From the NCBI GenBank assembly GCA_905234655.1, contig CAJOJG010000009.1, forward strand, positions 352 to 64,351: a DNA stretch of 64,000 nucleotides. Direction: 5' to 3'. The notes under the pieces were generated by a model, which did no database searches, was not told where the DNA came from, and saw only the letters and a list, made by a program, of their open reading frames with translations. This document shows, one piece after another, positions 1,546-54,392 of this stretch (positions are counted from its first letter, which is position 1; each line of letters opens with the position of its first letter). This DNA is from an uncultured Bacteroidales bacterium. Lineage in GTDB: Bacteria; Bacteroidota; Bacteroidia; Bacteroidales; UBA3824. The position numbers and the translations under genes were made by a program.

Positions 1546-1626
1546 CACGTTTTTGGTACGAAAAAGTGTCGATACCCGCACGTTTTTGGTACGAAAAAGC
1601 GTTGAAACCCGCACGTTTTTGTCAGG
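1546..1626. repeat. 33-bp direct tandem repeat, 2.5 copies (CACGTTTTTGGTACGAAAAAGYGTYGAWACCCG)
   Basis: Units at 1546-1578, 1579-1611 and a partial unit at 1612-1626. Each holds an imperfect palindrome, ACGTTTTT..AAAAAGYGT. The repeat lies in the divergent intergenic region between the ATPase pseudogene and ccsBA. Confidence 0.85.
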
Positions 1627-7520: not shown

Positions 7521-8834
7521 ATGTCAAGAATAGCCATCATAGGAGCAGGAATATCGGGATTGTCAGCCGCCAAGTCACTAATGGACAGCCACTCCGTCAC
7601 AATATACGAAAAAAGCGAAACTGCGGGCGGAATAGCCAAGAGCCAGCACGCCGACGGGTGCGTGTTCCACGTCTGCGGCGCAAACTCGATGAAAAGCCTG
7701 CACGATGCCACACGCTCATTCATATCGTCGCTCATCGACATCGACGAGGAAATTGTGGAAATCACACGAAACAGCGCGATACTCTTCGAGAACGGCGAAG
7801 TGTCAAAACCGGAGTTCCACGGCATGTTCCGCAAAAAAATGACCGAAATAGAAGGTGTGCCGAGCCCGATAGAGAACCACATATACATGTTCAAGCCCGA
7901 AATCCAGCGTCAAATCATCAGCGACATCTTCCACGTCAAGGCAAAAGAGCGCAACCGGCGCGCGCCAAAATTCCTCGCCACATACCTCAAGTCGAAGTTT
8001 GGACAGACGCTCTACGACATGTACTTCGGCCCCTACAACGAAAAAGTTTGGCACAGCGACCTTAAAAAAATCCCGCTCAGATGGCTCGAAGGACGACTAA
8101 GCGCGCCGACCGCCGACGAAATCCTATTGGCCAACTTCAACCACACGAACTACAAGCCGGGAGCCGCAAAAACATTCCTCTACGACACTAAGGGCGGCGC
8201 ACAAAGGCTCATAGACCGCCTTGTGGAGACTTTGGGCGACAGGCTCGTATGCAACCACGCCGTCCAAACCATCGAGCGCAAAGGCGACGTGTGGACTGTG
8301 GACGGCTCAGAATACGACAAAGTCGTCTACTGCGCAAACCTGAAACTCCTGCCCAAAATCCTGAAAACCGACCTCATTGAACCATTCACAGGCTACATCG
8401 AATCCCTGAAATACCACGGCACCACGTCAGTATTCTGCGAATTGGCGAAGAATCCCTACACCGAGATTTACCTGCCAGGAAAAGAGCACCGCGCCCACAA
8501 AATAATATGCACAGGAAACTTCACGCCCGAAAATAACAACGACCGACACAAGATGACCGGCACTGTGGAGTTCACGGACTACATCTCCGAAGACGAAATA
8601 AAGGGCGAACTCTCACGTATGCCGCTTAACCCGACATACATCACGCACCGGTACATCGAATGCACCCACCCCATCCAGGACATTGACACGCGCGAAACTG
8701 TATCCAACATAAAAGCCGCGCTACTTCCGTCGGGATTCTACCTGACAGGCCTCATCGCCGAATGGGAACAATACAACGTCAACCAGGCCATCAACGCCGC
8801 AATCAAAACCGTCGAAACAATGCATAATTCATAA
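7521..8834 (+). CDS. FAD/NAD(P)-binding oxidoreductase (amine-oxidase / protoporphyrinogen-oxidase-like fold)
   Basis: N-terminal Rossmann dinucleotide motif IAIIGAGISGLSAA...YEK....GG. 437 aa. The last four codons and the stop (MHNS*) lie inside the heptamer repeat element. Confidence 0.6.
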   Translation: MSRIAIIGAGISGLSAAKSLMDSHSVTIYEKSETAGGIAKSQHADGCVFHVCGANSMKSLHDATRSFISSLIDIDEEIVEITRNSAILFENGEVSKPEFHGMFRKKMTEIEGVPSPIENHIYMFKPEIQRQIISDIFHVKAKERNRRAPKFLATYLKSKFGQTLYDMYFGPYNEKVWHSDLKKIPLRWLEGRLSAPTADEILLANFNHTNYKPGAAKTFLYDTKGGAQRLIDRLVETLGDRLVCNHAVQTIERKGDVWTVDGSEYDKVVYCANLKLLPKILKTDLIEPFTGYIESLKYHGTTSVFCELAKNPYTEIYLPGKEHRAHKIICTGNFTPENNNDRHKMTGTVEFTDYISEDEIKGELSRMPLNPTYITHRYIECTHPIQDIDTRETVSNIKAALLPSGFYLTGLIAEWEQYNVNQAINAAIKTVETMHNS

Positions 8835-8862
8835 TGCATAATTCATAATTGCCATTCGGCGG
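8819..8862. repeat. Heptamer-palindrome element, half copy ((ATAATGC/ATAATTC)n-ATAATTGCCATTCGGCGG)
   Basis: AATGCATAATTCATAATGCATAATTCATAATTGCCATTCGGCGG. It belongs to the same family as 10837, 27413, 27561, 54243 and 54321, and overlaps the stop codon of the upstream gene. Confidence 0.8.
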
Positions 8863-8884
8863 AAAAATATTAATGCAAACCAAA

Positions 8885-8912
8885 ATTGTCAATTGTCAAC
8901 TGTCAATTGCCG
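8885..8912. repeat. 7-bp microtandem ATTGTCA x4 (ATTGTCA ATTGTCA ACTGTCA ATTGCCG)
   Basis: Read directly from the sequence. It sits 23 nt upstream of the purO-like start codon. Confidence 0.7.
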
Positions 8913-8934
8913 ATTATTAAAAACAATAAACATA

Positions 8935-9651
8935 ATGAAAATCGAATCGTTAGCAAAAGAGCTTTCCGCCACCACCTACCCCGGCCGCGGAATTGTGATA
9001 GGCAGAAGTGCCGACGGCAAATACGCCGTTACAGCATATTTCATAATGGGACGCAGCGAAAATTCGCGCAACCGCGTGTTCGTCGAGGACGGCGAGGGCA
9101 TCCGCACAGAGGCGTTCGACCCGTCAAAAATGAAAGACCCGTCGCTCATCATCTACGCGCCGGTCCGCGTCCTCGGCAACAACACAATCGTTACCAACGG
9201 CGACCAGACCGACACCGTCTATGACCTGATGAACGCCGAACAGACCTTTGAAATGTCGCTTCGCACACGCCAGTACGAACCCGACGCACCCAACTTCACG
9301 CCGCGCATCTCGGGCATTATGAACGTCAACAAAGGCAAATACACTTTCCAAATGTCAATCCTCAAATCCGACAGCGGCCGCCCCGAGTCAAATTGCAGAT
9401 ACACATTCAGTTACGACAATCCGATAGCGGGCGAGGGACGCTTCATCCACACATACATGGGCGACGGCAACCCGCTGCCGAGTTTTGAAGGCGAGCCGAC
9501 GAGGGTGGACATCAAGGGCGGCATCGACGAGTTCACTTCCACCGTCTGGAACAGCCTCGACGCCGAAAACAAAGTGTCGCTCTTCACGCGCTTTATCAAC
9601 ATTGAGACAGGCAGTTACGAAAGTAGAATCATCAACAAAAACACCAAATAA
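8935..9651 (+). CDS. IMP cyclohydrolase-like protein (archaeal PurO-type fold)
   Basis: YPGRGIVIGRS.DG...V.AYFIMGRSENSRNR.F and IIYAPVR..GN..IVTNGDQTD are characteristic of PurO-like IMP cyclohydrolases. The start was set at the MKIESL Met. Confidence 0.7.
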   Translation: MKIESLAKELSATTYPGRGIVIGRSADGKYAVTAYFIMGRSENSRNRVFVEDGEGIRTEAFDPSKMKDPSLIIYAPVRVLGNNTIVTNGDQTDTVYDLMNAEQTFEMSLRTRQYEPDAPNFTPRISGIMNVNKGKYTFQMSILKSDSGRPESNCRYTFSYDNPIAGEGRFIHTYMGDGNPLPSFEGEPTRVDIKGGIDEFTSTVWNSLDAENKVSLFTRFINIETGSYESRIINKNTK

Positions 9652-9652
9652 A

Positions 9653-10831
9653 ATGCAGGAATACCAACTCAAATACGGCTGCAACCCCAACCAAAAGCCC
9701 GCGCGGATATACATGCCGCAGGGCGAACTTCCCGTGGAAGTATTGAACGGCAGGGGCGGCTACATCAATTTCCTCGACGCCTTCAACGGCTGGCAACTCG
9801 TCAGCGAACTCAAAAAGGCTACCGGCATCCCCGCCGCGACCTCGTTCAAGCACGTTTCGCCGGCGGGCGCGGCCATTGGACTGCCGCTGTCGGACGTCGA
9901 GAAAAAGATATATTGGGCGGACGACCTCAACATCGAGTTCACGCCCCTCGCCAACGCCTACATACGCGCACGCGGCGCAGACAGAATGTCGTCGTTTGGC
10001 GACTTCATCGCGCTTTCCGACGTCTGCGACGAAAGCACCGCGCTCGTCATCAAGCGTGAAGTTTCCGACGGCGTGATTGCGCCCGGCTACACCGATGCCG
10101 CCCTCAACATCTTGAAAGCCAAGAAGAACGGCAACTATTGCGTCATCAAAATCGATCCGGAATACAAGCCCGCGCCCATCGAGAGGAAGGAAGTTTTTGG
10201 CATCACATTCGAGCAAGGCCGCAACGAACTTGTAATAGACGAACACTTCTTCGACAACATCGTTACCACCAACAAAAACCTGCCCGCACAGGCCAAGACC
10301 GACCTTGCGATTGCGATGATTACGCTGAAATACACACAGAGCAACTCGGTTTGTTACGTGAAAAACGGCCAGGCCATCGGCATCGGCGCAGGCCAACAGT
10401 CGCGCATCCACTGCACGAGGCTCGCCGGTCAGAAAGCCGACAACTGGTGGCTTCGACAGTCGCCGCAAGTGCTTGGTCTTCAATTCGTTGACGGCATCAA
10501 GCGTCCCGACCGCGACAACACCATCGACATCTACATTTCCGACGACTACATGGACGTACTTGCCGACGGCGAATGGCAAAAATTCTTCAAGGTAAAGCCC
10601 GAAATCTTCACCCGCGAGGCCAAACGCGCCTGGCTCGACAAAAACAGCGGCGTTTCGGTCGGTTCCGACGCATTCTTCCCCTTCGGCGACAATGTGGAAC
10701 GCGCCCACAAGAGCGGCGTCCTCTACATCGCCCAGCCCGGCGGCTCTGTCCGCGACGACAATGTCATCGACACCTGCAACAAATACGGCATCGTGATGAG
10801 TTTCACGGGGATAAGACTGTTCCATCACTAA
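9653..10831 (+). CDS. AICAR formyltransferase-domain protein (PurH C-terminal domain only)
   Basis: LKYGCNPNQ, FKHVSPAGAA, GIGAGQQSRIHCTRLA and SDAFFPF resemble the AICARFT half of PurH. The start is at 9653 (MQEYQLKYG), 1 nt after the purO-like stop. The longer ORF start at 9485 overlaps the previous gene and was rejected. Confidence 0.75.
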   Translation: MQEYQLKYGCNPNQKPARIYMPQGELPVEVLNGRGGYINFLDAFNGWQLVSELKKATGIPAATSFKHVSPAGAAIGLPLSDVEKKIYWADDLNIEFTPLANAYIRARGADRMSSFGDFIALSDVCDESTALVIKREVSDGVIAPGYTDAALNILKAKKNGNYCVIKIDPEYKPAPIERKEVFGITFEQGRNELVIDEHFFDNIVTTNKNLPAQAKTDLAIAMITLKYTQSNSVCYVKNGQAIGIGAGQQSRIHCTRLAGQKADNWWLRQSPQVLGLQFVDGIKRPDRDNTIDIYISDDYMDVLADGEWQKFFKVKPEIFTREAKRAWLDKNSGVSVGSDAFFPFGDNVERAHKSGVLYIAQPGGSVRDDNVIDTCNKYGIVMSFTGIRLFHH

Positions 10832-10836
10832 AATTC

Positions 10837-10918
10837 AATGCATAATTAATGCATAATTCATAATGCATAATTCATAATCAGGCTTCCGCCGGATGGCAAT
10901 TATGAATTATGCATTAAT
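10837..10918. repeat. Heptamer-palindrome element, full hairpin copy
   Basis: The left arm ...GCATAATTCATAAT (to 10878) and the right arm ATTATGAATTATGC... (from 10899) are reverse complements flanking the loop CAGGCTTCCGCCGGATGGCA. The element begins 5 nt after the stop of the upstream gene. Confidence 0.85.
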
Positions 10919-12927: not shown

Positions 12928-13033
12928 CGATACTACCGCCAAATCTCCAAAAAAAACAGAGATTTGGCGGCACTATCGCCGATACTACCGCCAAATCTCC
13001 AAAAAAAATCGAGATTTGGCGGTAGTATCGGCG
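12928..13033. repeat. Tandem duplication (~51 bp x2) of a hairpin unit CGATACTACCGCCAAATCTC-A-rich loop-GAGATTTGGCGG...
   Basis: Copy 1 is at 12928-12978 (imperfect outer stem). Copy 2 is at 12979-13033 (perfect). Confidence 0.85.
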
Positions 13034-13040
13034 ATTTTTT
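12977..13040 (+). terminator. Strong rho-independent terminator after the GH43 gene
   Basis: Perfect 23-bp stem (12977-12999 pairs with 13011-13033), an 11-nt loop, then ATTTTTT. Confidence 0.75.
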
Positions 13041-15251: not shown

Positions 15252-17834
15252 ATGAAAACCATCAATTTGCTATTGGCATTGGCTGCGCCCGCGATGCTGG
15301 CCGCCGGATACATGCCTGATAACGACAAGTATCAAAATATCAACAATATACGCCAGTTCGCCACGGTGAATGGCGATGACGACGGCTTCAGGCTGTGCAA
15401 GCAGCCGTACTACAAAGACATGTTCGACGACAAGGAACTCTCGAAGCTCGACAAGGCGGAAAAATACCGCGCAAAGTCCGACGAGGCCACTGTCCTCGCC
15501 GCCGCAATCCAAAAACAGGCGGACGACATGAGGATTATATCCGGTCAATCCGCCAAGATTCAAAAGCAGTCCGCAAAACTCTCCGCAAAGGCCGCGTCCC
15601 AGGAACTAACAGCCCTCAAGACATTCGAGAAGGCGGCTTCGTTGTACCGTCCGGTGTACTTCGACAAGATTGCCAAACTCGCCGCAGACACCTCACAGGC
15701 GAGCCTAAAGACCGCGCGCCAACTTGCTGAAAAGGCTTACCTCCACTACCACGCCGCAGACTCCATAAAGGGCGGAATAACTGCGGAAAACACCCTCGAA
15801 TCCAACCGCGCAATCTACACGAACATCGTCAATGCCGTTCATTATCAGGAACTTGCATTGGCAATCTGCAAGGGCGACCCGAAAATAGACTACACAAACT
15901 ACACAAACATCCTGAAGTCCACCGACACTACTTCAAAAACTGTCGAGATTCCAAAACTCATTGCCTTTGAGCATTACGATTTTGACAAGGACTCCAACCT
16001 CTACCGTCTGCGCTACCGCCAACTGACGCCAAAACTCGCCATCACCGACGCCGACAAGAAAATCGTCGACAAAATATCGCTTGACGAAGCCGCCATCGCC
16101 GACTATTTCCAAAAGGCGCAGTCCAAGGGTTGTTCAGCCGACACATTCCGCGTCTACGCCAACAACGCCGACAATCTCGCCGTGCGCGAATACTACGAGC
16201 AGATGGCGCAGGAAAGCGAACTCTCCGAATGCAGCAACCTATTGAAAGGCGTGAAGTTAGAGACCACGAACAACAATGCGCTCTACGAACTCTACAAGAA
16301 ATACATCCCCGCAATCCGCACCACGACTCCCACTGTCGGCACATACCGCGACCGCAGCGCAATAGCCACAATGTGGGAGCAGCAAGCCGAGAACCTCTAC
16401 AAAATCTCAAAAACATACGAGGAACTCGCCGCAAAACAGCTCAGCCACGTCGAGCAGTACACCCAACTTTCCGAGGGCAACGAGGCTAAGCTCCAGGCTC
16501 TGCAATACATTGAAAACGCAGTTGCAATATACCTCGGCGACTCCATCGTTCGCCCGAACAGCTCGTTAGCCGCCACAGCCGTCGAACGCCACAACGACAT
16601 CGCCATGGACTTCATGATGGACGAGTCGGGCGACGCGCCAGTTAAACCTGTGACGACTAACACAAACAAGTCAAACACACCGAAAACCACACCAGCAAAC
16701 ACCGTAGTCGACGTGTCAGGCAACAACAACAAAACCACAAACACCACCACAACGACCACGAAGCCGACAACGACCACAAAACCGACCACGACGACCAAAC
16801 CGACGACATCCAAAACCACAGTTGTCTCAGAACGCCAGCCCGCCGTCTCGTCGTCAAACGCCGCCGTAACAGCGACTTCCTACTACACACGCGACGACCA
16901 AAGGCTAAAGCCGTATAAATTCCCAACCTCGACAATATTCAGCGTCGAGGCCGGAATCTACAAAGAAATGCCGGAGCCGGTCGAGTTCCCGTCGGTTCAG
17001 ACCTTCCTGGCTCAAAACCTCAAAGGACAGACCTTCATGCGCTACTACATCGGCACATTCAAGACCTACGACGCAGCCCTCGCAGCCCAGGCGATTGCGA
17101 AAGACGAAGGCTACACCTCGTCAAAAGTCGTCGCATTCACAAACGGCAAGAAAGTCGACCTGACCGCCGCACGGAAGTCCGCCGAAAAAGCGTCAAACTA
17201 CCAGTCGCTCGTCCAAAGCGAGCTCAAAGCCTTGAACGCCAACCGCAAGGCGACCACTCCGGTCGTTGTGGCGACTAACACGGTCAACACCACAGGCTCC
17301 GCCCTGCCGCTCTCCATGCTCGGCGACTCATACGCCGTGCAGATTGCCGCGCTGCCCAAGCTCCTCGGCATGGACGCTTTCAATGTCAGCGAACTTTACT
17401 ACGACCAGAACGACGCAGGGCTGTACCGCTACTACACCGGCATCTCGGACGACATGAGCATTGCAAACGCAAACCTCACGACGCTCCGCCAGTCGGGCTA
17501 CGAAGACGCATACCTCGTCCAAATCGCCAACGGAACCAACATCGGCAACGCGACCACAAAGAACACGCCCACCGGCGCGAAAACCGGCACAGTATACCGC
17601 GTGCAGATCGGCGCATTCGCCGGAAACCCGAACCCCGACACCCAAAAGCGCATCAACTCACTGAAAGCCAATGGCTACACCGTCCATACGAGCCAGTCGG
17701 GGAAATACACAGTATACACCGTCGGCGACTGCACGACGCGCGACCAAGCCGAGACCATCAAAAAACAACTCGTGAACAAAGGCTTCAAGGAATCATACGT
17801 AGCCACATTCGTTAACGGCGTAAAACAGAACTAA
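15252..17834 (+). CDS. Secreted SPOR-domain protein: long helical N-terminal region, Thr/Pro linker, three SPOR-like repeats
   Basis: Signal peptide MKTINLLLALAAPAMLAAG. An Ala/Lys/Gln-rich helical region. A TTTTKP linker. C-terminal repeats of the SPOR pattern (YAVQIAAL..., YRVQIGAFAGNPN...GKYTVYTVG......A......L...GF..SYV). Confidence 0.75.
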   Translation: MKTINLLLALAAPAMLAAGYMPDNDKYQNINNIRQFATVNGDDDGFRLCKQPYYKDMFDDKELSKLDKAEKYRAKSDEATVLAAAIQKQADDMRIISGQSAKIQKQSAKLSAKAASQELTALKTFEKAASLYRPVYFDKIAKLAADTSQASLKTARQLAEKAYLHYHAADSIKGGITAENTLESNRAIYTNIVNAVHYQELALAICKGDPKIDYTNYTNILKSTDTTSKTVEIPKLIAFEHYDFDKDSNLYRLRYRQLTPKLAITDADKKIVDKISLDEAAIADYFQKAQSKGCSADTFRVYANNADNLAVREYYEQMAQESELSECSNLLKGVKLETTNNNALYELYKKYIPAIRTTTPTVGTYRDRSAIATMWEQQAENLYKISKTYEELAAKQLSHVEQYTQLSEGNEAKLQALQYIENAVAIYLGDSIVRPNSSLAATAVERHNDIAMDFMMDESGDAPVKPVTTNTNKSNTPKTTPANTVVDVSGNNNKTTNTTTTTTKPTTTTKPTTTTKPTTSKTTVVSERQPAVSSSNAAVTATSYYTRDDQRLKPYKFPTSTIFSVEAGIYKEMPEPVEFPSVQTFLAQNLKGQTFMRYYIGTFKTYDAALAAQAIAKDEGYTSSKVVAFTNGKKVDLTAARKSAEKASNYQSLVQSELKALNANRKATTPVVVATNTVNTTGSALPLSMLGDSYAVQIAALPKLLGMDAFNVSELYYDQNDAGLYRYYTGISDDMSIANANLTTLRQSGYEDAYLVQIANGTNIGNATTKNTPTGAKTGTVYRVQIGAFAGNPNPDTQKRINSLKANGYTVHTSQSGKYTVYTVGDCTTRDQAETIKKQLVNKGFKESYVATFVNGVKQN
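16743..16820 (+). repeat. Coding 15-18 bp tandem repeat giving (T)4-6KP x3
   Basis: ACN-rich repeats encode TTTTTTKPTTTTKPTTTTKPTTSKTT within the SPOR protein. Confidence 0.8.
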
Positions 17835-26634: not shown

Positions 26635-26844
26635 CTATTGCATTTTTCTGCCGTCGTTTTCCTCGTCCCTTTTCCTAAGATGACGCCGCCACAGGTACAT
26701 CAAAAGTGATGCTCCTGAAAAGAAATACATCGCTTGAGCCTCGCCAAAGCCAAATTTAACGTTCCTGATTATGGCTACCATAAAGCACATTATCGCTGTG
26801 CATATCCATAATATTTCCATCGGTTTTCTGCGCATGACAATCAA
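26635..26844 (-). CDS. Small two-TM membrane protein, hypothetical
   Basis: 69 aa with two hydrophobic helices and a basic/acidic tail. It sits directly downstream of lptC on the same strand. Confidence 0.4.
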   Translation of the reverse strand: MIVMRRKPMEILWICTAIMCFMVAIIRNVKFGFGEAQAMYFFSGASLLMYLWRRHLRKRDEENDGRKMQ

Positions 26845-26870
26845 AAATCAACAAATCAATAAATCAAAAA

Positions 26871-27464
26871 TTACTTAATGTCGTCGCCGTATTCTTCGTT
26901 GAGGTTGACTACGCCGTTGACATCCAGGAACTTGTAGTTCTTAAACGCCATGTCGGACTCGAATCCCTGTTTACCAACGATGACCGTGCCGTCGGGGTCG
27001 GTTACGGTGACTTTCTTGACGGAGAACACTTTCTTGCCATTCTCGTCACAAAATATCTGTTCGGTGTTGAGCTTTGTGCCAGTCTCATTGACAATTTCGA
27101 CGTTCAACCTCGCCTCCCACATTTTCTTTTTTGTGTAATAAACGGCGTATCCGGCTTTCAGCGAACTTTGGGCTTTGAGGTTTTCGTCGTAGAATATGAC
27201 ATTGACACCTTTTGGAAACTCCCAATACGGCTGCTTAACGGACGTGAACTGGTCAAGCACCGGCGCATCGACCGTGGTCTGCAAGCGGTGCTGCGAGTAA
27301 TATTTTGTGTGGAGATCCTTTGTGGACATGTCGGCAAACGTCTCGTCAATATTGTAATTGTCGAGGGCCTCCATCTTGGTCGAACAGGAGGTAATAACGG
27401 CGAGAGCCATATATAATGCATAATGCATAATGCATAATGCATAATTGCCATTCGGGGTGCGCAT
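26871..27464 (-). CDS. lptC: LPS export periplasmic protein LptC-like
   Basis: Bacteroidetes LptC-like pattern (KD...KYYS..RL.......L..F......YWEFPKGV.V.FYD.....S.L.A..A.Y......W.A...V.......G..L.TE.L..DE). The start is ambiguous: 27464 lies inside the heptamer repeat element and 27410 lies just after it. Confidence 0.65.
   Translation of the reverse strand: MRTPNGNYALCIMHYALYMALAVITSCSTKMEALDNYNIDETFADMSTKDLHTKYYSQHRLQTTVDAPVLDQFTSVKQPYWEFPKGVNVIFYDENLKAQSSLKAGYAVYYTKKKMWEARLNVEIVNETGTKLNTEQIFCDENGKKVFSVKKVTVTDPDGTVIVGKQGFESDMAFKNYKFLDVNGVVNLNEEYGDDIK
27413..27460. repeat. Heptamer-palindrome element, half copy ((ATAATGC)x4-ATAATTGCCATTCGGGG)
   Basis: Four perfect ATAATGC heptamers followed by the core. 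It overlaps the 5' end of the lptC ORF (read as ..YALCIMHYALY.. on the minus strand). Confidence 0.85.
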
Positions 27465-27560
27465 AACAAAATCAATAAATCAACAATTATTTTTTTTGTT
27501 TTTTAATTTCGTGATTTCCGTGTGTTCCGTGTTCAAAAACACATAGTCAACAAACCACAA

Positions 27561-27632
27561 ATAATGCATAACGCATAGTTGTCATCGTGCGGATGTCCAA
27601 TTATGCATTATGCATTATGAATTATGCATTAA
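27561..27632. repeat. Heptamer-palindrome element, full (degenerate) hairpin copy
   Basis: Left arm ATAATGCATAACGCATAGTTG, a central TCATCGTGCGGATGTC, then the right arm CAATTATGCATTATGCATTATGAATTATGCATTAA. It abuts the stop codon of the TPR gene at 27633. Confidence 0.8.
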
Positions 27633-29297
27633 CTAAAATCTTGCAGTGGTAGACTCGCCAATCCAGCCGCCGATTGTGACGGTCTTTCCGGCTGTCACGG
27701 AGTGCATGAAGGCTTCTTCCTTCTTCGGGCACTGTCCGATGTAGCGGTTGATGAGCTGCTGTGCCTCCGAGGCGATGGAAGGATCGACAGATTTTGCCTT
27801 CTGGAGCTTGTCAATAACGAGCCAGTAGGTCATTGACTTCTCGAAGTGGTCCTCGCCGACGGGATTTGCACCGTACATTGTGGCGATGATGAGGTAAGGC
27901 AAACCGTAGTTGGGGTTGAGTTCGATGGCATTGCGGGCGTATGTGCGGGCGTTGCTGAACTGGTTCTTCTTCTGGAGGAGCTTTGCGATGGAGCAGTTGT
28001 AGATGGCTTTCATAGTGTCCACGGACGAAAGGCTGATGGCCTTCTTGTAGTTCTCGATTGCGTCGTCTTCCTTGCCCTTCTTCTCGAGCATCCTTGCAAG
28101 ACCGAAGCAAGCGGACTCCGTGGGGTTGTTGGCGATTACCTTTGTCACAGCGTCTTCGTAGAGCTGTGAGTCGGTGCAGCCTTTCTGACCGAGCACCCTC
28201 ACGATTTTGTCGCAAAGCTCGAGGTCGTTGGGATTAGCCTTGAGTTTGCCGGAGAATGCGTTGACGAGTACGTCGCACTGTGCTGCGGTGCTGTTGGAGA
28301 ACAGACCGAGGATGCCGCCTTCGACCTGCGAGCAGGTGGCGAGGTCGCTTTCCGCCTTCTGCTTGTCCTTGTCAGAAGATGCGTTTGCGAGCTTCGCATT
28401 CTCGTCGGCGCGCTTCTGAGAGAGGATGTCCGCAAACTGCAAGTACTTCTCCACGACAACCGTCGCGTCGATTTTCTCAGCGTTGTACATCGCGATTACG
28501 GACTGCATGGCTGTCTGGATTACAGCGTATTCAGTGTTCTTTCCGCCGAGGTCGATGGCCTTGATGAGGGTGTTGTAGGGGACTTCAATCGCGCCCTTGC
28601 GGTATTTCTGAAGGTCGACGCCCTTACGTCCGAGGAGGTATGCCTCGTTGTAGAGTTTGCTCGATGCAGCGAAATACTTGATGCGCTGGTCGTAGACCAT
28701 CATCAAGGTGTCGACCCAAATCTGCTGCTCCTTGCTGTCTTTTGCGAGCTCCCTTTTTTTCTTGATAATGTTGACACCGTTAGAGTAGACAGTCTGCGAG
28801 ATTTTTGGGTAGTCCTTGAAAAGGATTGACCATGAGGGGTAGGCGTCCTCAAGGGCGTTCTGCTTACAGAACTCCTGGAAAGTCGACAGTAGCCTAATAC
28901 CCTGTGCGGAGTCTGCGCCATACTGCTCCTCGCGCATTAGGTTGGCGATTTTGTGCTGCTCGTTCTGGATAGCGGCCTTGAGGTCGCCCAACGTGCCGGC
29001 TTTCTGCATATCTTTGAGTGTACGTGCGTCAAAGAACTGAAGTTCGGGCATTTCGTTAACGCCCACATGCTCTACCGTGACAATCTCGCCGATGCCGTCG
29101 CTCATTTTTTTGTAGAGCTCGCGGTACTTGTTCTTCAAAGCCTTGTTGTAGGTCGTGTTACTCGTTATCGCGAGTTCGCCCGCAGTCTCGGGGAACTTTG
29201 CCTTGATTACGTCCTCGGGCGACTGTGCCGATACGCTGCCGGCGACCAGTATTGCCGAAAGGCTCAGGGCTGTTCTTGCTATCTGAAATTTATTCAT
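27633..29297 (-). CDS. Secreted TPR-repeat protein, function unknown
   Basis: Signal peptide (..ILVAGSVSAQ). TPR-like helical repeats in the C-terminal half (AIENYKKAISL.., ARTYARNAIELNPNYG). Confidence 0.6.
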   Translation of the reverse strand: MNKFQIARTALSLSAILVAGSVSAQSPEDVIKAKFPETAGELAITSNTTYNKALKNKYRELYKKMSDGIGEIVTVEHVGVNEMPELQFFDARTLKDMQKAGTLGDLKAAIQNEQHKIANLMREEQYGADSAQGIRLLSTFQEFCKQNALEDAYPSWSILFKDYPKISQTVYSNGVNIIKKKRELAKDSKEQQIWVDTLMMVYDQRIKYFAASSKLYNEAYLLGRKGVDLQKYRKGAIEVPYNTLIKAIDLGGKNTEYAVIQTAMQSVIAMYNAEKIDATVVVEKYLQFADILSQKRADENAKLANASSDKDKQKAESDLATCSQVEGGILGLFSNSTAAQCDVLVNAFSGKLKANPNDLELCDKIVRVLGQKGCTDSQLYEDAVTKVIANNPTESACFGLARMLEKKGKEDDAIENYKKAISLSSVDTMKAIYNCSIAKLLQKKNQFSNARTYARNAIELNPNYGLPYLIIATMYGANPVGEDHFEKSMTYWLVIDKLQKAKSVDPSIASEAQQLINRYIGQCPKKEEAFMHSVTAGKTVTIGGWIGESTTARF

Positions 29298-53410: not shown

Positions 53411-54265
53411 ATGACAATAATCGAAAACAAAGAATACGAGGGCGAGCGTCCTCTTTATTGCACGAGCGACCTGATTCTCCACAATGTAACCATCCACGCG
53501 GGCGAATCGGCGTTGAAGGAGACCCGCAACATCACCGCCGAAAACTGCACTTTCGAGGGCAAATATCCGTTTTGGATTACCGACGGCTTCAATGTCCGCA
53601 ACTGCACTTTCAGCCCCGGCGCACGTGCCGCCCTGTGGTATTCCAACGACCTCGTGATGACCGACACGATAATCGAGGCTCCAAAAATGTTCCGCGACAG
53701 CCGCCGCCTGTGCCTCCAAAACGTCCAAATCCCGGAGGCGCAGGAGACTTTTTGGCACTGCGACGACATCACCATCGAAAACGTGCAGGCGGACAATGCG
53801 CCGTACATCTTCATGCACTGCAACAATCTGAAAATCAACAACTACACCCAAAACGGCAACTACTCGTTCCAATACTGCAAAAACGTGGAAATCCGAAACT
53901 CGAAGATTTACTCCAAGGACGCATTTTGGAACAGCGAGAACGTTACGGTATATGATTCTGAAATCATCGGCGAATACCTCGCGTGGCACAGCAAAAACGT
54001 CCGCCTCGTCAACTGTCTGATTGGCGAGACGCAGCCATTGTGCTACTGCGACGGCCTCGTCCTCGAAAACTGCCGCCTGCGCGACGACGCAGACCTGGCT
54101 TTTGAATATTCGGACGTCAACGCCACAATCACCGGCCACGTCCCGAGCATCAAAAACCCGCGCACCGGCCACATCAAGGCTGATACCGTCGGCGAAATCA
54201 TCATCGACCAAAACATCAAGCCGCCCGCCGACTGCGTGATTCAATGCATAATGCACAATGCATAA
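53411..54265 (+). CDS. Right-handed beta-helix repeat protein (DUF3737-like)
   Basis: Repeated short coils (NVTIH.GES.LKE..NI...NC.F.GKYP.W......V.NC.F). The start was set at MTIIENKEY. The C-terminal CIMHNA* is encoded by the heptamer repeat element. Confidence 0.6.
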   Translation: MTIIENKEYEGERPLYCTSDLILHNVTIHAGESALKETRNITAENCTFEGKYPFWITDGFNVRNCTFSPGARAALWYSNDLVMTDTIIEAPKMFRDSRRLCLQNVQIPEAQETFWHCDDITIENVQADNAPYIFMHCNNLKINNYTQNGNYSFQYCKNVEIRNSKIYSKDAFWNSENVTVYDSEIIGEYLAWHSKNVRLVNCLIGETQPLCYCDGLVLENCRLRDDADLAFEYSDVNATITGHVPSIKNPRTGHIKADTVGEIIIDQNIKPPADCVIQCIMHNA

Positions 54266-54291
54266 TGCATAATTGGGCATCCGCCGGAAGC
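54243..54291. repeat. Heptamer-palindrome element, half copy
   Basis: AATGCATAATGCACAATGCATAATGCATAATTGGGCATCCGCCGGAAGC. It contains the stop codon of the beta-helix gene. Confidence 0.8.
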
Positions 54292-54320
54292 AAATAAGAA
54301 TTGTTATTGAAAAAAATCTC

Positions 54321-54384
54321 ATAATGCACAATGCAAGCATCAGCCGAATGGCAATTATGAATTATGCATTATGAATTATGCATT
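54321..54384. repeat. Heptamer-palindrome element, full hairpin copy
   Basis: The sequence is ATAATGCACAATGCA-AGCATCAGCCGAATGG-CAATTATGAATTATGCATTATGAATTATGCATT. It ends 8 nt before the ATG at 54393. Confidence 0.8.
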
Positions 54385-54392
54385 GAAAAAAA

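What the first reader, a model, noticed from the sequence alone, without database searches (positions are those of the whole stretch)
10837..10918. Dispersed palindromic element family built from ATAATGC/ATAATTC heptamers around a GCCATTCGGCGG core
Seen in sequence: there are six copies in 64 kb, at 8819-8862, 10837-10918, 27413-27460, 27561-27632, 54243-54291 and 54321-54384. Each copy has 2-5 tandem heptamers (ATAATGC, ATAATTC, occasionally ACAATGC) joined to ATAATTG-CCAT(T/C)CGGCGG-AAGC, or the reverse complement of that. Three copies carry heptamer runs on both sides and can fold as long AT-rich hairpins with the GC-rich core in the loop. The other three are one-armed. Every copy lies within a few nt of a start or stop codon, and none is followed by a T-tract. 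Inference: this looks like a REP/MITE-like intergenic element family that may act as an mRNA 3' stabiliser, a terminator or a protein-binding site. No RAYT-like transposase or other mobilising gene is present in the window.
Basis: seen in the sequence. Interest (0 to 1): 0.6.

Follow-up and report, generated by a model that had tools for sequence, protein, structure and literature searches.

The report
Heptamer-armed hairpin repeats between genes
The six sites are real copies of a roughly 70-copy family of non-coding hairpin repeats that sit exactly at gene ends in an uncultured rumen/gut Bacteroidales bacterium. Their arms, and apparently their GC core, match the ends of small gene cassettes carrying the "23S rRNA intervening-sequence protein", so they look like gene-less miniatures of a poorly understood selfish element.

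Summary
All six copies are present (17 arm matches in the window against 0 in shuffles). The genome holds 69 such loci, and 15 of them share an identical 28-mer.

None lies inside a gene. 53 lie between same-direction genes, 14 between convergent genes and 1 between divergent genes. The outer end of an arm abuts a stop or start codon (median 2 nt). Several upstream ORFs end on a TAA inside the arm.

Only some species of the genus carry the family. Orthologous junctions show presence/absence, changes in unit number, a flipped core and a strain-level replacement. Distant relatives have ordinary terminators at two of the sites.

No Y1/RAYT transposase and no target-site duplication were found.

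New here: genes of Pfam PF05635 (S23p, the ORF of 23S rRNA intervening sequences) are almost always flanked by inverted 7-9-nt repeat arrays. 60 of 76 metagenomic homologues have ATAATKC/ACAATKC arms, some with the same inner TTGCCATYCGG motif, and one pair sits directly after purH.

The family is therefore best read as the ORF-less, REPIN/MITE-like counterpart of these IVS-like cassettes. Miniature number does not track S23p presence, so how it is mobilised is unknown. Any RNA role (an RNase III or 3'-end hairpin) is inferred only.

The parts
8817..8862 (+). One-armed copy. It has five heptamers (ACAATGC ATAATTC ATAATGC ATAATTC ATAATTG, 8817-8851) followed by the core CCATTCGGCGG (8852-8862). 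The TAA stop of the upstream amine-oxidase-like gene (8832-8834) lies inside the arm.
   Evidence: The orthologous junction in G012, G004 and G015 is only 2-6 nt long, and G022 has other heptamers there.
8884..8909 (+). A different heptamer array (AATTGTC type). It fills the rest of the same spacer before the PurO-like gene.
10835..10917 (+). Two-armed copy starting 4 nt after the AICARFT (purH-type) stop at 10829-10831. The left arm is 10835-10880, the core GGCTTCCGCCGGATGGC is 10881-10897, and the right arm is 10897-10917.
   Evidence: It folds at -30.1 kcal/mol, z -5.4. The element is present at the same site in G015, G022, G004 and G012, with different unit numbers and a flipped core. Distant relatives have canonical terminators there.
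27413..27462 (-). One-armed copy immediately upstream of the LptC-like gene, whose ATG is at 27408-27410 on the - strand. On that strand it reads GCGCACCCCGAATGG-CAATTAT(GCATTAT)4-AT-ATG.
   Evidence: The architecture is conserved in G004, G015 and G022.
27561..27632 (-). Two-armed copy that starts directly after the stop (27633-27635, - strand) of the TPR gene. Its core has diverged.
   Evidence: It folds at -28.4 kcal/mol, z -4.5. The orthologues have different cores; G004 has GGTGTCT-TGC-AGACGCC. Distant relatives have a GC-stem/T-tract terminator at this place.
27469..27559 (.). Variable filling between the two copies. It contains AATCAAC-type and TTCCGTG-type short repeats.
   Evidence: In DNA contigs of a roughly 97-98% identical strain (runs X2-X4), these 89 nt are replaced by GTGATTGAAGTGATTGAAGTAATTGAAAA.
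54241..54291 (+). One-armed copy. The arm is 54241-54275 and the half-core GGCATCCGCCGGAAGC is 54276-54291. The TAA stop of the DUF3737 gene (54263-54265) lies inside the arm.
   Evidence: The four closest relatives have no such element here. Their gene runs about 14 codons further and is followed by other inverted repeats.
54321..54386 (+). Two-armed copy with a short left arm. It ends 6 nt (A-run) before the ATG (54393) of an aminotransferase gene.
   Evidence: The fold is weak (z -0.8 on +, -2.4 on -). The same composite layout occurs at two non-orthologous junctions of G022.

Best explanation
The six sites belong to a lineage-restricted family of non-autonomous, non-coding repeat elements in rumen/gut Bacteroidales.

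The basic unit is about 47-52 nt. It is a 35-nt arm of five AT-rich heptamers (TYAATKC ATAATTC ATAATGC ATAATTC ATAATTG) joined to a GC-rich inner motif (TTGCCATYCGG or TTGGGCRTCCG). Two units in inverted orientation give the two-armed hairpin form. Its 'core' is simply the two inner motifs abutted.

The elements are copied as blocks into gene junctions that contain at least one gene 3' end. They replace the native spacer, and sometimes a native terminator and the last few codons. They are tolerated because the arm carries TAA in all three frames on one strand and ends in an A/T-rich leader on the other. After insertion, arms change unit number, cores decay or flip, and the interior is swapped between strains.

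In architecture and termini the family is the ORF-less counterpart of cassettes in which the same inverted arms enclose the S23p / 23S-rRNA-intervening-sequence-protein gene (Pfam PF05635). The relation resembles MITE to IS, or REPIN to REPtron.

Shown: family membership, distribution, orientation, turnover, hairpin potential and the shared ends with S23p cassettes.

Inferred:
- The elements spread by a copying mechanism that does not leave target duplications.
- When co-transcribed, the two-armed copies form 18-35-bp AU-rich stems. These could act as RNase III sites or as 3'-end barrier hairpins, as the stems of rRNA IVSs do.
For: Copying as a block:
- 15 loci share the exact 28-mer ATAATTCATAATGCATAATTCATAATTG followed by one of a few GC motifs.
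- The modal arm length is 5 units (37 of 94 arms).
- About 32 core copies are found against 1 in a shuffled genome.

Placement:
- Of 69 loci, 0 are inside genes, 53 are co-directional, 14 convergent, 1 divergent and 1 at a contig end. The background is 1903/366/378.
- For one-armed copies the outer end is nearer to a CDS than the core end in 41 of 49 cases (p = 2e-6), with median distances of 2 nt against 74 nt.
- Several upstream ORFs end inside the arm.

Turnover:
- The pattern occurs in 10 of the 25 genomes of the genus searched (this one included) and in none of 16 other families sampled.
- Orthologous junctions are filled, empty or replaced.
- The core is flipped in G004 and G012.
- A strain-level replacement is seen.
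- Synteny breaks at the purH copy.
- Distant relatives have intrinsic terminators at both two-armed sites.

Hairpins fold with z -4.3 to -5.4.

Link to S23p:
- 17 of 18 PF05635 genes of the genus lie between inverted arrays.
- 15 of 27 loci from 27 other genera exceed the 99th percentile of 569 control genes.
- 74 of 76 metagenomic homologues do the same, and 60 of 76 have ATAATKC/ACAATKC arms.
- Inner ends TTGCCATYCGG occur in L253, L255, L256 (both sides, inverted) and L020.
- A full cassette lies directly after purH in L328 and L331.
- A decayed S23p gene sits inside arms in G014, and ORF-less armed spacers occupy the same araD-araA junction in G022 and G024.

Published Coxiella IVS: an S23p ORF, a 28-bp terminal inverted-repeat stem cut by RNase III, and strain-variable tandem heptamers (PMC4990558).

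The genome encodes RNase III.
Against: - Miniature copy number does not follow S23p. G022 has 36 pattern hits, G012 has 16 and G015 has 8, yet none has an intact PF05635 gene. The two intact genes in this genome have other arm types. S23p is therefore unlikely to be a currently required trans-acting mobiliser. The direction of the relationship (miniature derived from cassette, or gene landed in a hairpin) is open.
- The two arms of one element are not more complementary to each other than to arms of other elements. There is therefore no covariation evidence that the stem is under selection.
- No transcript ends or cleavage sites could be observed. Rumen metatranscriptome contigs contain such arrays only from many unidentified organisms.
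- No enzyme that could copy the element was identified.
Confidence: 0.6

Rival explanations
1. The hairpin elements came first and the S23p gene is a later invader. Heptamer-armed hairpins are an independent repeat family (or host structures). The small S23p gene preferentially inserts into hairpin loops, as it does at the tips of helices 25 and 45 of 23S rRNA. On this view the six copies are potential targets, not derivatives.
For: The genomes richest in miniatures lack intact S23p. In L256 the gene sits between two inverted TTGCCATYCGG motifs, exactly where the loop of a minimal element would be. Many cassettes have arms that touch the ATG and the stop directly. rRNA IVSs sit in hairpin loops (PMC4990558).
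Against: A decaying S23p gene inside intact arms (G014) shows that ORF loss does occur. The cassette including its arms is 97-100% identical between two species whose flanking genes are 85-90% identical, so gene and arms travel together. No empty/filled pair with identical arms was found at one junction.
Confidence: 0.22
2. The arrays are ordinary heptanucleotide simple-sequence repeats produced in place by replication slippage, as proposed for bacterial long SSRs. The GC cores are remnants of local terminators. Nothing is copied between loci.
For: Period-7 arrays of several other words are common in this genome. Unit number differs between orthologous copies. Heptamer repeats next to start codons and, inverted, after stop codons are described in other bacteria (PMC4679880).
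Against: Fifteen loci have the same 28-mer in the same unit order joined to the same 11-12-nt GC motif. The modal arm is exactly 5 units. Junctions in close relatives go from 2-6 nt to 100 nt in one step. Similar composites sit at non-orthologous junctions of G022.
Confidence: 0.07
3. The element is a host cis-regulatory signal. It could be an operator for a dimeric DNA-binding protein (the near-palindrome CATCCG-N-CGGATG), a phase-variation switch whose heptamer number tunes expression of the gene that starts 4-12 nt downstream, or an unusual T-tract-less terminator maintained by selection.
For: The core is palindromic. Arms end a few nt before many start codons. Unit number varies between species. 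The elements occupy terminator positions.
Against: Flanking genes have unrelated functions: amine oxidase-like, PurO/AICARFT, GH43, LptC-like, TPR, DUF3737 and aminotransferase. The elements are almost absent from divergent promoter regions. They are missing from most species of the genus and from orthologous junctions of close relatives. Cores decay freely. No within-sample length heterogeneity was visible, although only contigs were available.
Confidence: 0.08
4. It is a REP/REPIN family mobilised by a RAYT (IS200/IS605-like Y1 transposase) encoded elsewhere in the genome.
For: There are singlet and inverted-doublet forms. The elements are intergenic, biased to 3' ends and leave no target duplication.
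Against: No PF01797 (Y1_Tnp) match was found in the 94%-complete genome, while the control search rang in 6 of 14 reference genomes. The arms are tandem heptamers rather than a single short GC-rich palindrome.
Confidence: 0.03

Closest known systems
23S rRNA intervening sequences carrying the S23p ORF (Coxiella burnetii, Leptospira; PMC4990558)
   Same: Terminal inverted repeats form a stem of at least 20 bp around a PF05635 ORF. Tandem heptameric repeats next to the ORF vary in number between strains. The element is regarded as selfish, and the ORF is prone to decay. The sister cassettes found here have exactly this layout.
   Different: The elements here lie between protein-coding genes, not in helix 25/45 of 23S rRNA. 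The six copies in the window have no ORF. The arms are made entirely of heptamers. RNase III cleavage is shown for the rRNA IVS but is untested here.
REP / BIME / REPIN elements with RAYT (enterobacteria, Pseudomonas)
   Same: Short dispersed intergenic units occur as singlets and as inverted doublets that form hairpins. They sit at gene 3' ends and between convergent or co-directional genes. There is no target duplication, and the repeats combine with other repeat modules into mosaics.
   Different: No RAYT gene was found. The arms are AT-rich tandem heptamers, not a GC-rich imperfect palindrome. The gene-bearing relative encodes a four-helix-bundle protein, not a transposase.
Heptanucleotide direct repeats at gene boundaries (TAACTGA of Beggiatoaceae, cyanobacteria and some Bacteroidetes, PMC4679880; cyanobacterial STRR, from my own knowledge; G-rich heptamers of Xanthomonas/Nostoc, PMC4692102)
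   Same: They are 7-nt tandem units that are intergenic and lie within a few nt of start codons. The opposite orientation follows stop codons. They are absent from close relatives with the same gene order, and their mechanism is unknown.
   Different: Here the arrays have a fixed length and unit order, are joined to a conserved GC motif, are paired in inverted orientation, and are shared with S23p cassettes.
Correia / nemis MITEs of Neisseria
   Same: They are about 100-150-bp inverted-repeat elements next to genes. They are co-transcribed, and the hairpin is cut by RNase III, which changes mRNA fate. This is the behaviour predicted here.
   Different: Correia elements have defined 26-bp TIRs and a TA target duplication. 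No heptamer arrays or S23p relatives are known for them.

Membership tests
REP/REPIN-RAYT | Short dispersed intergenic unit occurring as singlets and as inverted doublets that can form a hairpin | tested here: met
   49 one-armed and about 15 two-armed or composite loci. Fold z is -4.3 to -5.4.
REP/REPIN-RAYT | Cognate RAYT (Y1 transposase, PF01797) in the genome | tested here: not met
   No match in the 94%-complete genome. The control search rang in 6 of 14 reference genomes.
MITE | Terminal inverted repeats, small size, many copies | tested here: met
   Inverted 35-nt arms plus inner motif, 45-150 bp in size, 69 loci.
MITE | Target-site duplication flanking each copy | tested here: not met
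   No direct repeat is seen at the outer ends. Comparing filled and empty junctions shows replacement rather than simple insertion.
MITE | Parent element with the same ends encoding a transposase | tested here: not met
   The only gene-bearing relatives encode S23p (PF05635). No transposase lies between arms in 89 arm pairs scanned.
Heptanucleotide LSSR / STRR-type repeats | Tandem direct repeats of a 7-nt unit, mainly intergenic | tested here: met
Heptanucleotide LSSR / STRR-type repeats | Arrays arise and vary by local slippage | tested here: inconclusive
   Unit number differs among orthologues. However, 15 loci share one 28-mer and the mode is 5 units, which indicates copying as a block.
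23S rRNA IVS (S23p type) | Inserted in helix 25 or 45 of the 23S rRNA gene | tested here: not met
   All six copies lie between protein-coding genes.
23S rRNA IVS (S23p type) | Terminal inverted repeats forming a long stem | tested here: met
   Continuous stems of 17-22 bp form in the two-armed copies.
23S rRNA IVS (S23p type) | S23p (PF05635) ORF inside the stem-loop | tested here: not met
   The six copies have no ORF. The feature is met only by sister cassettes with the same arms (L188, L193, L020, L253-L332).
23S rRNA IVS (S23p type) | Excision from the transcript by RNase III | not testable with these tools
   An RNase III gene is present. No usable RNA reads of this organism were available.
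Intrinsic (rho-independent) terminator | GC-rich stem followed by a U-tract | tested here: not met
   The stems are AT-rich and no T-tract follows in the sense direction. 0 of 58 element-bearing 3' ends passed a strict terminator filter, but only 2.6% of other genes did, so the test has no power.

The most novel reading that the evidence does not exclude
Heptamer-armed hairpins and S23p cassettes together would form an 'mRNA intervening sequence' system. These would be selfish elements that live in intercistronic spacers and gene 3' ends because RNase III cuts their long AU stems out of the transcript, just as the rRNA IVSs are removed from 23S rRNA. The operon they invade therefore keeps working. 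If so, the long-unexplained heptamer repeats at bacterial gene boundaries (STRR, TAACTGA and similar) would largely be arms or footprints of this element class. The S23p four-helix-bundle protein, an Avd relative, would be its so far unrecognised nucleic-acid-handling factor.
Probability: 0.2. Interest if true: 0.85.

Novelty: new variant of a known kind. Interest (0 to 1): 0.62.

Why it matters
Bacterial heptamer repeats at gene boundaries have been catalogued for decades without a mechanism. The S23p / 23S-rRNA-IVS protein family is widespread: 97 of 121 Bacteroidales genera sampled carry it, with up to 32 copies per genome. It still has no known function.

This family links the two. The same arms and inner repeats bound both gene-less hairpins and S23p cassettes, and both sit exactly between ORFs, often inside conserved operons. 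That turns two loose ends into one testable hypothesis.

The elements also mark synteny breakpoints and replace native terminators. They therefore matter for operon prediction, for assembly (contigs break at them) and for understanding genome rearrangement in rumen and gut Bacteroidales.

Tried and rejected
- Rfam, gathering thresholds, whole window: no family found. No tRNA or tmRNA.
- RAYT/IS200 search in the genome: none.
- Target-site duplications: none at the outer ends or in filled/empty comparisons.
- Pairing constraint between the two arms of one element:
  - Agreement of the G/T variant position in paired units was 0.47, against 0.50 for shuffled partners.
  - Within-element arm complementarity was not higher than between elements.
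  - So there is no covariation-type support for a selected stem.
- Depletion of canonical terminators at element-bearing 3' ends: 0/58 against 70/2642, p = 0.4. The test has no power.
- RNA evidence:
  - RNA runs hold only 4-5% of the sampled words.
  - Contigs laid on the purH junction pile up on the heptamer arm, with loose ends from many different organisms.
  - This organism's own transcript cannot be seen.
- Inversion of the segment between arms: no strand-changing joints in four DNA runs, but only contigs were available.
- Phage carriage: only 3 exact pattern hits in 2.9 million viral contigs.
- S23p as trans-mobiliser: copy numbers do not correlate.
- Arm pairs enclosing larger payloads: only three cases among 89 pairs in the DNA held. 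Two enclose S23p genes. The third holds two unrelated small ORFs.
- Regulon idea: flanking genes are functionally unrelated.

Full report
**Observation**

The six copies are at the reported places. ATAATKCATAATKCATAAT with up to 1 mismatch hits 17 times in the window, and never in 100 dinucleotide shuffles.

The window is contig C9:352-64351 of a 3.39-Mb, 49.8% GC, 129-contig assembly. Exact pattern hits in public genomes fall almost only in uncultured rumen/gut Bacteroidales MAGs from sheep, yak, deer and similar hosts.

Genome-wide counts:
- 70 runs of at least 2 perfect heptamers
- 69 loci with at least 3 units or a core
- about 32 true matches to the core, against 1 in a shuffled genome

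**Anatomy**

The unit is an arm of five heptamers joined to a GC motif. Fifteen loci carry the identical 28-mer ATAATTCATAATGCATAATTCATAATTG, preceded by one more unit (TYAATKC). It is followed by TTG-CCATYCGGCGG, TTG-GGCRTCCGC or a few variants. Five units is the clear mode, seen in 37 of 94 arms.

Two units in inverted orientation give the two-armed form. Its 'core', TTGGGCATCCG-C-CGGATGGCAA, is the two inner motifs abutted. Two-armed copies fold into long AU-rich stems at -28 to -31 kcal/mol, z -4.3 to -5.4. One-armed copies do not.

Larger composites hold 70-150 nt of other short repeats between the two halves. Examples are window 27413-27632 and 54241-54386, and C8 32007-32187, C18 4924-5124 and C7 39179-39370.

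**Placement**

I used a simple codon-usage gene call that gave 2776 genes and 87% coding. Among the 69 loci:
- none is inside a gene
- 53 lie between co-directional genes
- 14 lie between convergent genes
- 1 lies between divergent genes
- 1 lies at a contig end

Divergent spacers make up 14% of all spacers and are the longest.

For one-armed copies the outer end of the arm is the side that abuts a CDS in 41 of 49 cases (p = 2e-6). Median distances are 2 nt on the outer side and 74 nt on the core side.

On the sense strand the order is therefore stop codon, (AUAAUKC)n, GC motif ... GC motif, (GMAUUAU)n, A-rich linker, AUG. The ATAATKC strand has TAA in all three frames within 21 nt. Several upstream ORFs terminate inside the arm, for example at window 8832-8834 and 54263-54265.

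The genes flanking the six window copies have unrelated functions. A regulon is therefore unlikely.

**Comparison with relatives**

The strict pattern is present in 10 of the 25 genomes of the genus searched, this one included. Counts are G022 36, this genome 20, G012 16, G015 8 and G004 7. It is absent from 16 genomes of other families of the order.

- **purH 3' end.** The four closest species (about 87% identity in purH) have the element directly after the stop. Unit numbers differ. In G004 and G012 the core is in the opposite orientation. The DNA beyond the element differs in each lineage, so the element marks a synteny break. More distant species have ordinary GC-stem/T-tract terminators at that position.
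- **Junction 8834-8934.** This genome has 100 nt. G012, G004 and G015 have 2-6 nt. G012 retains only TCAATGCATAATGAATTAA.
- **Junction 27408-27635.** The two-element layout is conserved in three relatives. The cores have diverged; G004 has a different 7-bp stem. Distant species again show a terminator plus a TAnnTTTG-type promoter.
- **Junction 54265-54392.** The closest relatives lack the family. Their upstream gene runs about 14 codons further, so here the element replaced the gene's end and the whole spacer.
- **Strain level.** Contigs of a 97-98% identical strain in four DNA runs break at the elements. They show the interior 27469-27559 replaced by a 29-nt array of another word.
- **Non-orthologous sites.** Similar composites sit at two non-orthologous junctions of G022.

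**What mobilises it**

No Y1/RAYT gene is present. There are no target duplications. Phage contigs almost never carry the pattern, with 3 hits.

A note from an earlier agent (e1-2309020) gave the next lead, and I tested it here. The Pfam PF05635 gene (23S_rRNA_IVP, S23p; P0001 is 1.6e-35 to PDB 2RLD) at C102:1192-1560 lies between inverted ACAATTC/ATAATTC arms.

The association holds widely:
- In the genus, 17 of 18 PF05635 loci lie between inverted arrays. The unit word differs from locus to locus but is always complementary between the two sides. Many sit at the same araD-araA junction.
- Across 27 other genera, 15 of 27 loci exceed the 99th percentile of an inverted-flank score computed on 569 control genes.
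- Among 76 metagenomic homologues of the L188 protein, 74 exceed that threshold. 60 have ATAATKC/ACAATKC arms. They occupy many different junctions, including macB-like/macA-like genes, V-ATPase genes and carA-carB. In L328 and L331 the cassette lies directly after purH of an organism whose purH is 71% identical to this one.

The inner ends of these cassettes include AATTGGCTRCGC...GCGYAGCCAATT and, in L253, L255, L256 and L020, the very motif of this family (TTGCCATYCGG). In L256 it is present on both sides in inverted orientation.

Further observations:
- At araD-araA, G014 holds a decayed S23p gene inside intact arms. G022 and G024 hold ORF-less armed spacers.
- The C102 cassette including its arms is 97-100% identical to that of G018, while the flanking genes are 85-90% identical.

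The published Coxiella IVS has the same ingredients. It has an S23p ORF, a 28-bp terminal inverted-repeat stem cut by RNase III, and strain-variable tandem heptamers (PMC4990558).

**Limits**

- Miniature number does not follow S23p. G022, G012 and G015 have no intact PF05635 gene. S23p is therefore not shown to mobilise the miniatures, and the direction of descent is open.
- Arms of one element are not better matched to each other than to arms of other elements. The stem is a consequence of the inverted layout and is not demonstrably selected.
- No transcript data for this organism could be obtained. The terminator-depletion test lacked power.

**Comparison with known systems and verdict**

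The family behaves like REP/REPIN or MITE elements but fails their defining tests: no RAYT, no target duplication and no transposase parent. It shares the 7-nt periodicity and the start/stop-codon orientation rule with described heptamer repeats (PMC4679880). It differs from them in its fixed block structure and GC motif.

Its closest structural relatives are S23p-bearing intervening sequences, here outside rRNA and without the ORF. My literature searches found no description of S23p cassettes with heptamer arms between protein genes, nor of their gene-less miniatures.

I rate the family a new variant of a known kind, of moderate to good interest. The mechanism of spread and any RNA-level function remain inferred.

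Noticed in passing
G000:C13:21843, C18:5056, C42:13420 and 14 further loci (none in the window): A second dispersed perfect palindrome, GTAGAGACGTTTCATGAAACGTCTCTAC, occurs at 17 loci. At several of them it lies directly next to a core of the heptamer family, so the repeat modules form mosaics.
   Followed up: partly
G000:C4:44259, C5:72650, C54:4838, C61:18976, C10:61973, C32:11, C88:71: A 19-mer, TGTGCCGGGGGCGTGGATA, occurs at 9 loci, two of them at contig ends. It recurs right beside heptamer arms and may be the end of another mobile element.
   Followed up: no
window 12928-13035: A 52-nt unit (CGATACTACCGCCAAATCTCCAAAAAAAACAGAGATTTGGCGGCACTATCGC) is repeated 2.1 times in tandem in the spacer after the GH43 gene. 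Each unit is itself a hairpin with an A-run/T-less loop. The GATTTGGCGG word also follows several cores elsewhere.
   Followed up: no
window 1546-1621: A 33-nt tandem repeat of 2.3 copies (CACGTTTTTGGTACGAAAAAGCGTCGAAACCCG) lies in an intergenic region.
   Followed up: no
window 8935-10831: IMP synthesis is split into a PurO-like IMP cyclohydrolase (PF07826) followed 1 nt later by an AICARFT-only protein (PF01808, profile positions 76-311). This gene pair is bracketed by copies 1 and 2 of the family.
   Followed up: no
L180 (G000:C102) vs L181 (G018:C29): The S23p cassette between araD and araA, arms included, is 97-100% identical between two species whose flanking genes are 85-90% identical. 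This suggests recent exchange of the cassette at the same junction.
   Followed up: partly
window 26839-26871 and 27506-27531: Other short-period arrays are present (AATCAAA 7-8 nt, ATTTCCGTG 9 nt). The CGGAA/TTCCGTG word also forms the inverted arms of the ORF-less araD-araA spacers of G022 and G024.
   Followed up: partly
window 16742: The related strain in runs X2 and X4 has a 24-nt in-frame insertion (ACCACCACAACGAAGCCGACGACG) within an 18/39-nt repeat region of the gene at 15294-17834.
   Followed up: no
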